Assembly (NCBI GenBank): GCA_030695905.1 | Contig: JAUYOL010000036.1 | Coordinates: 118,814 to 182,813, forward strand | DNA: 64,000 nt | Reading direction: 5' to 3' | Source: Candidatus Omnitrophota bacterium | GTDB taxonomy: Bacteria > Omnitrophota > Gorgyraeia > 2-01-FULL-45-10 | DNA letters: not shown here | Below: the continuation of a report on this DNA, generated by a model with database tools

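What the first reader, a model, noticed from the sequence alone, without database searches (positions are those of the whole stretch)
1..64000. Glycan cluster saturated with radical SAM enzymes (7 cobalamin-binding plus 4 SPASM-like) and 9 methyltransferases
Eleven CxxxCxxC radical SAM genes fall within 64 kb of carbohydrate-biosynthesis genes. They are at 1-667 (partial), 7948, 17327, 24601, 29763, 36861, 41173, 43221, 49624, 60857 and 62679. Seven carry an N-terminal B12-binding domain with the GG-x-H-x-T-x-x-P motif. Class-I methyltransferase genes lie beside or near several of them (pairs such as 17327/16581, 29763/31257, 43221/42301, 49624/48848+48155, and 62679/60857 with 60119/59244).

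Class B radical SAM enzymes are established C-methyltransferases and epimerases at unactivated carbons; GenK, Fom3, TsrM and PoyB/C are examples. One or two per sugar cluster is already unusual, so seven plus four SPASM-type enzymes points to a glycan with multiple radical-installed modifications, plausibly a poly-C/O/N-methylated sugar or nonulosonic acid. The alternative would be a RiPP cluster, but there is no room for a precursor peptide gene.
Basis: partly seen in the sequence, partly recalled or inferred. Interest (0 to 1): 0.85.

Follow-up and report, generated by a model that had tools for sequence, protein, structure and literature searches.

The report, continued
Best explanation
**What it is.** The window is the central 64 kb of a cell-surface glycan biosynthesis super-cluster of more than 80 kb, read in one direction, in a Candidatus Omnitrophota genome. 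The glycan could be an O-antigen or LPS-type polysaccharide, a protein or S-layer glycan, or both.

**How it is built.** It is a mosaic of horizontally mobile cassettes. Each cassette makes one unusual sugar and attaches it. Each carries its own radical SAM tailoring enzyme or enzymes, usually together with class I methyltransferases.

**Three cassettes can be delineated.**
- (a) 12866-18826: CDP-glucose 4,6-dehydratase, cupin, aminotransferase, class B rSAM and GT2. This would make a modified CDP-linked amino-dideoxyhexose.
- (b) 48155-52432: an AglJ/DPM1-like GT2, two methyltransferases and a class B rSAM, followed by a GT-C (PMT_2). This would make a multiply methylated sugar.
- (c) 31257-44726: an 'Arn-like' route. 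An amino sugar is made (DegT, with twitch and BlsE-like rSAMs standing in for NAD-dependent oxidation or decarboxylation), N-acylated, loaded on polyprenyl phosphate by an ArnC-like GT2, tailored by a class B rSAM plus a methyltransferase, amidated by AsnB, and transferred outside the membrane by GT-C enzymes.

**Shown.** Gene content, family and fold assignments, cassette conservation, and gene fusions.

**Inferred.** That the class B enzymes act on sugars while these are nucleotide-linked or polyprenyl-phosphate-linked. That most of them add C-methyl groups through methylcobalamin. The order of steps.
For: - **Family and fold.** Pfam and NCBIfam assignments. AF2 models of 49624 and 36861 with pLDDT 88-90, matching class B and SPASM/twitch structures respectively.
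- **Source and extent.** The proteins are named as from an Omnitrophota MAG. The cluster continues beyond both window ends with two more class B rSAMs, a second Wzx, a TylC3-like C-methyltransferase, a GHMP kinase, a nucleotidyltransferase and a carbamoyltransferase.
- **Old paralogues.** The class B genes share only 22-34% identity, so they are distinct enzymes and not recent copies.
- **Cassette (a).** Conserved in Planctomycetales, Omnitrophota, Nitrospirae, Dehalococcoidales and Chlorobiaceae MAGs.
- **Cassette (b).** The trio MT-GT2, MT and rSAM is present in 7 of 8 orthologous loci, including cultured Desulfocarbo indianensis and a Parcubacteria genome.
- **Cassette (c).** Eight genes are 68-78% identical in L069, and five genes are 33-61% identical in an Oligoflexia MAG. 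In L069 the acyltransferase is swapped for a formyltransferase, as in ArnA.
- **Links between class B rSAMs and polyprenyl-phosphate GT2 enzymes.** P0105 is a fusion of GT2, two TM segments and a class B rSAM. The 43221 and 40253 orthologues are adjacent in L068. The 49624 and 51107 pairing is conserved.
- **Small rSAM family.** Relatives of 60857 are fused to GT2, GT25 or GT1 domains.
- **Non-B12 rSAMs.** Their best solved-structure sequence matches act on sugars or nucleotides: BlsE, BtrN and viperin.
- **Precedents.** HpnJ acts on hopanoid-linked glucosamine, and MoeK5 and GenK methylate sugars (PMC9204698).
Against: - No enzyme here reaches a curated functional family cut-off, and no product structure exists for any homologous locus.
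- Sequence and fold neighbours of the class B genes include non-methylases (AprD4, OxsB, BchE, HpnJ) at the same distance as the methylases.
- A 55% identical relative of 29763 lies between the nuo operon and cdaA, with no glycan genes nearby. That family is therefore not exclusively glycan-linked.
- The BlsE and BtrN similarities are limited to the core or twitch domains (36-55 bits). Fold search of 36861 ranks peptide maturases (CteB, SkfB) as high as BlsE.
- No ArnD-like deformylase or ArnE/F-like flippase was recognised.
- Cobalamin binding cannot be read from the sequence.
Confidence: 0.7

Rival explanations
1. This is the same glycan cluster, but several or most of the class B enzymes are not methyltransferases. 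They would instead catalyse other radical sugar chemistry: ring contraction to carbocycles (HpnJ- or OxsB-like), C-O bond removal or diol dehydration (AprD4-like), or oxidation and cyclisation (BchE-like).
For: - Top NCBIfam hits are BchE and HpnJ for 29763, 49624 and 43221.
- AprD4 is the best PDB sequence hit for 17327 and 29763.
- OxsB and AprD4 rank with the methylases in the fold search.
- The review PMC9204698 lists HpnJ, BchE and OxsB as non-methylases inside the main class B sequence cluster.
Against: - Most characterised class B enzymes are methylases (PMC9204698, PMC12931638).
- Conserved adjacency to class I methyltransferases suggests a methylation theme.
- 17327 is closest to the Sden_1168 family, which is proposed to be a C- or P-methylase.
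Confidence: 0.25
2. The radical SAM enzymes act on the lipid part and not on the sugar. The target would be the polyprenyl carrier or a membrane lipid, through methylation, cross-linking or saturation. This would resemble the class B and related rSAMs of hopanoid, ladderane and tetraether lipid pathways.
For: - There are hits to the 'lipid biosynthesis B12-binding/radical SAM' family TIGR04072 (99-154 bits), and to HpnR and HpnP-type families.
- One relative is fused to a membrane-anchored GT2.
- Omnitrophota appear in papers on membrane-spanning lipid producers.
Against: - All those hits are far below their cut-offs.
- The conserved partners are sugar-nucleotide enzymes, glycosyltransferases and methyltransferases, not lipid synthases.
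- No isoprenoid or fatty-acid genes occur in 80 kb.
Confidence: 0.06
3. The locus, or part of it, makes a secreted glycolipid or aminoglycoside-like specialised metabolite (moenomycin-like phosphoglycolipid logic) and not a structural surface glycan.
For: The tailoring set parallels what I recall of the moenomycin genes: a class B rSAM sugar C-methylase (MoeK5, named in PMC9204698), AsnB-type amidotransferases and a carbamoyltransferase. All three kinds are present here or in L023 and L025. AprD4, GenK and BtrN are aminoglycoside enzymes.
Against: - Wzx, Wzy_C, a PglC-like initiating transferase, NeuB/NeuC/CMP-transferase and a LIC12162 O-antigen-region transferase are hallmarks of surface glycan assembly.
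- No 2-deoxy-scyllo-inosose synthase, prenyl-phosphoglycerate synthase, resistance gene or exporter gene was seen.
Confidence: 0.06
4. It is a RiPP or protein-maturation locus. The SPASM and class B rSAMs would modify a peptide or protein, in the manner of PoyB/C, anSME or sactisynthases.
For: - SPASM/twitch rSAMs are typical peptide maturases.
- Fold search of 36861 ranks CteB and SkfB at the top.
- ApyD and RiPP C-methylase families appear among the weak hits.
Against: - No intergenic gap exceeds 59 nt, and no small ORF lies on the coding strand.
- There is no leader-peptide-binding (RRE) domain, and no protease/transporter pair.
- The conserved neighbours are sugar enzymes.
- Relatives are fused to glycosyltransferases.
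Confidence: 0.02

Closest known systems
GenK / GenD1 (gentamicin) and MoeK5 (moenomycin): class B radical SAM sugar C-methyltransferases
   Same: They share the B12-domain plus radical SAM architecture. They act on carbohydrate carbons inside glycoside pathways. MoeK5's substrate is a lipid-phosphate-linked sugar (my recollection), in a pathway that I recall also uses AsnB-type amidation and carbamoylation. Both of those enzyme kinds are present here.
   Different: Those are actinomycete antibiotic pathways with one or two such enzymes. Here at least 9 divergent class B genes sit in a Wzx/Wzy-type surface glycan cluster of an anaerobe. No orthology was shown, because neither GenK nor MoeK5 is in the libraries I could score against. 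The nearest solved relatives are only 15-22% identical.
HpnJ (hopanoid cyclitol ether formation) and BchE
   Same: They are the best or near-best NCBIfam hits for 29763, 49624, 17327 and 43221, at 110-205 bits. HpnJ works on an amino sugar attached to a membrane lipid (PMC9204698), like the lipid-linked substrate proposed here.
   Different: The scores are far below the equivalog cut-offs (481-578 bits). There are no hopanoid or chlorophyll genes nearby. HpnJ and BchE are not methylases.
Arn pathway (ArnB, ArnA formyltransferase, ArnC, ArnT) for lipid A aminoarabinose
   Same: Cassette (c) has the same logic and the same protein families: a DegT aminotransferase, an N-acyl or N-formyl transferase, a GT2 with two C-terminal TM segments that resembles ArnC/GtrB/AglJ, and a PMT_2 GT-C.
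   Different: No member reaches the ArnB or ArnC cut-offs (95 against 631; 72 against 529). There is no ArnA dehydrogenase, ArnD or ArnE/F. Three radical SAM genes, a methyltransferase and an AsnB enzyme are added. The acceptor is unknown.
BtrN, BlsE, DesII: twitch/SPASM-type radical SAM enzymes acting on sugars or aminocyclitols
   Same: They are the best PDB sequence hits for 24601 (BtrN twitch domain), and for 41173 and 36861 (BlsE). The pairing of 36861 with a DegT aminotransferase recalls DesI/DesII. BlsE and DesII appear in the fold search.
   Different: The similarities are weak (36-55 bits, 13-18% identity). DesII is not detected by sequence. Peptide maturases score as well in the fold search.
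Sden_1168 (SD1168) family, NF038361
   Same: It is the closest curated family to 17327: 300 bits over nearly the full length.
   Different: The score is below the 575-bit cut-off. The physiological substrate of SD1168 is itself unknown (PMC9204698). Here the gene is locked to a CDP-hexose cassette.
WsaE-type methyltransferase-glycosyltransferase fusions of S-layer glycan pathways (from my own knowledge, not tested here)
   Same: Cassette (b) is centred on an MT-GT2 fusion with additional methyltransferases, as in glycan chain-capping enzymes that add and methylate a terminal sugar.
   Different: The GT2 here is of the AglJ/Dol-P-hexose-transferase type. In the window copy the MT domain has lost its SAM-binding loop. 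A class B rSAM is an obligatory partner in 7 of 8 loci.

Membership tests
Radical SAM superfamily | A CxxxCxxC cluster-binding motif and a PF04055 match. | tested here: met
   The motif is present in 10 in-window genes, and in the full-length form of the partial gene. PF04055 passes for 9 genes. Gene 60857 is borderline at 29.3 against 29.5 bits, but its family hits PF04055 in 37 of 38 members, with an invariant GGE motif.
Class B (cobalamin-dependent) radical SAM | An N-terminal Rossmann-type B12-binding domain (PF02310) ahead of the radical SAM barrel. | tested here: met
   PF02310 scores 51-89 bits in six genes. It scores 31.6 bits in the truncated 62679; the full-length protein has the domain. 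The AF2 model of 49624 matches TsrM, MgmA, OxsB, AprD4, TokK and CysS.
Class B (cobalamin-dependent) radical SAM | Actual cobalamin binding, and methyl transfer through methylcobalamin. | not testable with these tools
   AprD4 has the same domain layout but is annotated as a 1,2-diol dehydratase, not a methylase. No sequence rule separates the two cases. No cobalamin riboswitch was found.
Named class B families (BchE, HpnJ, HpnR, PhpK, Sden_1168, ApyD, BzaD, MgmA/MJ_0865, KedN5, TsrM, AprD4) | Score at or above the NCBIfam curated cut-off. | tested here: not met
   The best ratio is 17327 against Sden_1168, 300 of 575 bits. All others are at most 205 bits against cut-offs of 251-775.
SPASM/twitch radical SAM | A PF13186 or TIGR04085 match with a C-terminal Cys-rich auxiliary-cluster motif. 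| tested here: inconclusive
   Met for 24601 (57 bits) and 36861 (40 bits; invariant C285, C303 and C345). Gene 41173 scores 19.1 against 21.5 bits. Gene 60857 has no hit but three invariant C-terminal Cys.
DesI/DesII-type deamination pair | A radical SAM partner homologous to DesII, next to a DegT aminotransferase. | tested here: not met
   The adjacency to DegT is conserved. DesII (8hzv) is not found by sequence at E<=0.01. It appears only as a generic fold match at 13% identity.
Arn (aminoarabinose) pathway | ArnB, ArnA (dehydrogenase plus formyltransferase), ArnC, ArnD, ArnE/F and ArnT orthologues. | tested here: not met
   There are family-level counterparts only: DegT, hexapeptide acyltransferase (formyltransferase in L069), ArnC-like GT2 and PMT_2. 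The ArnB and ArnC cut-offs are not reached. No ArnA dehydrogenase, ArnD or ArnE/F was found. The cassette works like Arn but is not a member.
Nonulosonic acid (sialic/legionaminic-type) biosynthesis | A NeuC-type hydrolysing 2-epimerase, a NeuB-type synthase and a CMP-transferase. | tested here: met
   NeuC scores 423 bits against cut-off 236. NeuB scores 243 bits in Pfam (its TIGR03569 score of 359 is below 400). CTP_transf_3 scores 81 bits.
Wzx/Wzy-dependent surface glycan assembly | An initiating phosphoglycosyl transferase, a Wzx flippase, and a Wzy/ligase-type membrane protein. | tested here: met
   Bac_transf 194 bits, Polysacc_synt/MatE, Wzy_C 74 bits. A second Wzx lies upstream in L024.
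RiPP biosynthetic cluster | A precursor peptide gene next to the maturases. | tested here: not met
   The largest intergenic gap is 59 nt. All neighbours are sugar enzymes.
Phosphonate-decorated glycan pathway (considered because of the Sden_1168/PhpK/Fom3-like hits) | PEP mutase and phosphonopyruvate decarboxylase. | tested here: not met
   No PEP mutase occurs among the roughly 70 genes seen. The ThDP enzyme is a split transketolase, not a Ppd-type decarboxylase.

The most novel reading that the evidence does not exclude
In many anaerobic, mostly uncultured bacteria (Omnitrophota, Parcubacteria, Desulfobacterota, Oligoflexia, Dehalococcoidia, Nitrospirota), a previously unrecognised layer of glycan biosynthesis uses cobalamin-type and twitch-type radical SAM enzymes. 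These would remodel sugars while the sugars are attached to polyprenyl phosphate, in Arn-like side-branch pathways. The result would be C-alkylated, ring-contracted or deoxygenated sugars on the cell surface that ordinary glycan chemistry cannot make. This window would be the most concentrated example seen here, with at least 13 such enzymes in 80 kb.
Probability: 0.35. Interest if true: 0.8.

Novelty: new variant of a known kind. Interest (0 to 1): 0.62.

Why it matters
Class B radical SAM enzymes are a very large, mostly uncharacterised group. Their known sugar substrates all come from antibiotic pathways.

I found no paper linking them to cell-surface glycan assembly. Five searches aimed at that link found none, and a 2026 review of B12-dependent radical SAM enzymes does not mention glycans or polysaccharides.

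If the cassettes defined here do what their context suggests, three things follow:
- They point to surface sugars with carbon-carbon branches or other radical-installed features in whole phyla for which I found no published glycan structure.
- They point to polyprenyl-phosphate sugars as a new substrate class for these enzymes.
- They give concrete, testable enzyme sets. Three cultured organisms carry them: Desulfocarbo indianensis, Magnetospirillum sp. UT-4 and M. aberrantis.

The limit is that nothing here is biochemical. The general idea, radical SAM tailoring of sugars, already has precedents.

Tried and rejected
- **RiPP reading.** Rejected: gaps are at most 59 nt and the neighbours are sugar genes.
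- **29763 as a nonulosonic-acid modifying enzyme, because it overlaps NeuB.** Not supported. Relatives sit in a heptose-type cluster without NeuB (L025). One is fused to a GT2 (L026). One lies 6 kb from NeuB (L070). One lies between nuo and cdaA (L027).
- **Phosphonate tailoring, because of the Sden_1168/PhpK hits.** No PEP mutase was found.
- **My recollection that the Kuenenia S-layer glycan paper described a radical SAM gene cluster.** This was wrong. The paper reports a heavily methylated O-glycan by mass spectrometry only, with no gene cluster.
- **Assigning chemistry from structure.** The AF2 and Foldseek results for 49624 and 36861 confirm the fold classes but do not separate methylase from non-methylase, or sugar enzyme from peptide enzyme.
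- **Identifying the polytopic unknowns 35017, 44723 and 11460.** No Pfam, NCBIfam or PDB sequence match was found.
- **Cobalamin riboswitch, other RNA families and tRNA.** None found.
- **Literature.** Five searches for class B rSAM in O-antigen, capsule, nonulosonate or LPS contexts found nothing specific. The only related item was a single unstudied radical SAM gene in a C. jejuni HS:19 capsule locus.
- **Reaching the ends of the cluster.** Not possible, because only 10 kb beyond window genes could be fetched.

Full report
**1. The observation**

The window is one uninterrupted run of about 56 genes on the minus strand. GC is 39-50% and GC skew is negative over nearly the whole window. Successive genes overlap or are separated by at most 59 nt.

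The eleventh gene, at 1-667, is the N-terminal 222 residues of a B12-domain protein that the window start cuts before the motif. On the source contig the protein is 489 aa and carries CPYDCIFC at residue 225.

Pfam confirms B12-binding plus Radical_SAM in 7948, 17327, 29763, 43221 and 49624. It confirms B12-binding in 1-667. For 62679 it gives Radical_SAM plus a truncated B12 domain, because the N-terminus runs off the window end.

The four other radical SAM genes differ from one another:
- 24601 has a clear SPASM domain (57 bits).
- 36861 has a clear SPASM domain (40 bits).
- 41173 is below the SPASM cut-off (19.1 against 21.5 bits).
- 60857 has no SPASM hit and only a borderline Radical_SAM score (29.3 against 29.5 bits).

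I checked 60857 separately. A full HMMER pass over 1.84 billion representative proteins found 1,114 relatives. Of 38 aligned members, 37 hit Radical_SAM. The CxxxCxxC, GGE and three C-terminal cysteine positions are invariant. It is therefore a genuine, compact radical SAM protein of about 281 aa, as in the contig's own gene call.

Seven class I methyltransferases pass Pfam thresholds. Genes 16581 and 59244 are sub-threshold, and only 16581 shows the glycine-rich SAM-binding loop.

The motif GG-x-H-x-T-x-x-P is exact in three of the seven class B genes. All seven have G-[GN]-x-H at the aligned position.

Eleven radical SAM genes among 56 is far above what a 1-5% background would give, with a binomial tail of 1e-11 to 9e-5. 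That background rate is my assumption.

**2. Source and extent**

Exact-sequence look-ups place the window on a 171.5-kb Logan contig, SRR13727529_13181, at positions 73,957-137,956. The same proteins lie on a 252.6-kb NCBI contig whose proteins (MDP3791569 to MDP3791610) are named as from a Candidatus Omnitrophota MAG. All six proteins I looked up are singletons at 90% clustering.

The cluster does not end with the window.
- **Beyond the window start** lie the rest of the class B gene, a GHMP kinase, a nucleotidyltransferase, an aminotransferase, an epimerase, a split carbamoyltransferase, a PMT_2 protein and another class B rSAM.
- **Beyond the window end** lie a glycosyltransferase, a second Wzx, a CmcI-like methyltransferase, an epimerase, another class B rSAM, an RmlC-like cupin and a TylC3-type sugar C-methyltransferase.

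Together that makes at least 9 class B and 4 other radical SAM genes in the 80 kb I could see, with no boundary reached.

**3. The genes around them**

The remaining genes are a surface-glycan toolkit:
- a PglC-like initiating transferase and a PglF-like dehydratase;
- Wzx, a 12-TM Wzy_C protein, four GT2, four GT4 and a PMT_2 GT-C;
- a LIC12162-family transferase that passes its cut-off;
- NeuC (passes), NeuB, a CMP-transferase and WbuX (passes);
- a CDP-glucose 4,6-dehydratase (passes);
- two DegT aminotransferases, several SDR epimerases, two AsnB-type amidotransferases, a hexapeptide acyltransferase and a split transketolase.

Three polytopic membrane proteins (11460, 35017 and 44723) match nothing. 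No RNA family and no tRNA is present.

**4. The radical SAM genes are old, distinct and unassigned**

The nine class B proteins share only 22-34% identity with one another, so they are not recent duplicates.

None reaches a curated NCBIfam cut-off. The best case is 17327 against the Sden_1168 family, at 300 of 575 bits. The others peak on BchE or HpnJ at 110-205 bits.

The best solved-structure sequence matches are AprD4 (a diol dehydratase) and 9ccb. Entry 9ccb is MgmA, the glutamine C-methyltransferase of methyl-coenzyme M reductase.

An AlphaFold model of 49624 has pLDDT 88. It matches TsrM, MgmA, OxsB, AprD4, TokK and CysS about equally, at 15-22% identity. The class B fold is therefore secure, but the chemistry is not.

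For the non-B12 genes:
- The best sequence matches are BlsE (41173 and 36861) and the BtrN twitch domain (24601).
- The model of 36861 has pLDDT 90 and gives BlsE the best reciprocal TM score. Sactisynthases, SkfB, DesII, anSME and viperin are all in the same range.

**5. Conserved cassettes**

This is the main new result.

**Cassette (a).** A scan of one genome per species with 17327 returned 21 loci, in Planctomycetales, Omnitrophota, Nitrospirae, Dehalococcoidales, Hydrogenedentota, Chlorobiaceae, Desulfobaccales, Victivallaceae and even a Woesearchaeota bin, at 47-70% identity.
- In 15 of those loci the DegT aminotransferase directly follows the rSAM gene.
- In many of them the CDP-glucose dehydratase, the cupin and the GT2 follow as well.
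- This is a mobile five-gene module for a CDP-linked amino-dideoxyhexose.

**Cassette (b).** 49624 belongs to a tight orthologue group of at least 53% identity and 485-487 aa. The group includes cultured Desulfocarbo indianensis, a Parcubacteria genome and a Chitinispirillaceae MAG.
- In 7 of 8 orthologous loci with flanks, the rSAM gene travels with an MT-GT2 fusion (the orthologue of 51107) and the orthologue of methyltransferase 48848. Often the orthologue of 48155 is there too.
- The GT2 domain resembles AglJ and dolichyl-phosphate hexose transferases.
- In the window copy the MT domain has lost its SAM-binding loop.

**Cassette (c).** A 272-kb metagenome contig (L069) carries orthologues, 68-78% identical, of 40253, 37978, 36861, 43221, 42301, 41173, 33113 and both halves of 31257.
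- An Oligoflexia MAG (L068) carries 43221 directly next to 40253, plus 37978, 36861, 39253 and a 31257-like gene, at 33-61% identity.
- Magnetospirillum aberrantis keeps the 36861 and DegT pair.
- In L069 the hexapeptide acyltransferase is replaced at the same position by a formyltransferase.

The set in cassette (c) reproduces the logic of the Arn pathway, with three radical SAM enzymes, a methyltransferase and an amidotransferase added. The shared elements are:
- a DegT aminotransferase;
- an N-acyl or N-formyl transferase;
- an ArnC/GtrB/AglJ-like GT2 with two C-terminal TM helices;
- a PMT_2 GT-C a few genes away.

**6. Where the class B enzymes probably act**

Three independent observations tie class B rSAM genes to GT2 enzymes of the polyprenyl-phosphate glycosyltransferase type.
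- P0105, a relative of 29763 (42% identity), is a single 836-aa protein made of a GtrB/ArnC-like GT2, two TM helices and the class B rSAM. It sits among methyltransferase, AsnB, PMT_2 and GT4 genes.
- The 43221 and 40253 orthologues are adjacent in L068.
- The 49624 and 51107 pair is conserved.

In the window, 7948 also overlaps the start of the PglC-like initiating transferase gene. In addition, the small 60857-type rSAM is fused to GT2, GT25 or GT1 domains in 7 of 38 relatives.

From this I infer that at least some of these enzymes work at the membrane on polyprenyl-phosphate-linked sugars. This inference is not shown. Precedents exist:
- HpnJ contracts the ring of a hopanoid-bound glucosamine.
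- MoeK5 and GenK are class B sugar methylases (PMC9204698).
- That MoeK5's substrate is a lipid-phosphate-linked sugar is my recollection, not something I checked.

Class I methyltransferases flank the class B gene in relatives of all three families that I examined (L025, L026, L030, L069, L070). This favours a methylation theme but does not prove C-methylation.

**7. Limits and counter-evidence**

- A 55% identical relative of 29763 lies between the nuo operon and cdaA in 17 contigs, with no glycan genes nearby.
- The NeuB adjacency of 29763 is not conserved.
- Multi-rSAM glycan loci are common in the related MAGs, at 2-4 per 12-21 kb in L002, L004, L005, L007, L030 and L069. The window is therefore an extreme of a lineage-wide habit and not a unique event.
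- Two Wzx genes and several GT-C candidates suggest more than one product.
- The BlsE-like 'decarboxylase' role and the order of steps in cassette (c) are analogies.

**8. Comparison with what is known, and novelty**

The parts are members of known superfamilies: radical SAM, class B, SPASM/twitch, class I methyltransferases, and Wzx/Wzy glycan assembly. They are not members of any named functional family that I could test.

My five literature searches aimed at a link between class B radical SAM enzymes and O-antigen, capsule, nonulosonate or LPS biosynthesis found no such paper. A 2026 review of B12-dependent radical SAM enzymes contains no mention of glycans or polysaccharides. A single unstudied radical SAM gene is listed in a C. 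jejuni capsule locus. The Kuenenia S-layer O-glycan is reported as heavily methylated by mass spectrometry alone, without genes.

I therefore rate the finding as a new variant of a known kind. Radical tailoring of sugars is established in antibiotic pathways. Here it appears as a modular, widespread and unusually dense feature of surface-glycan clusters, with a plausible new substrate class.

**9. Verdict**

- Interest is 0.62.

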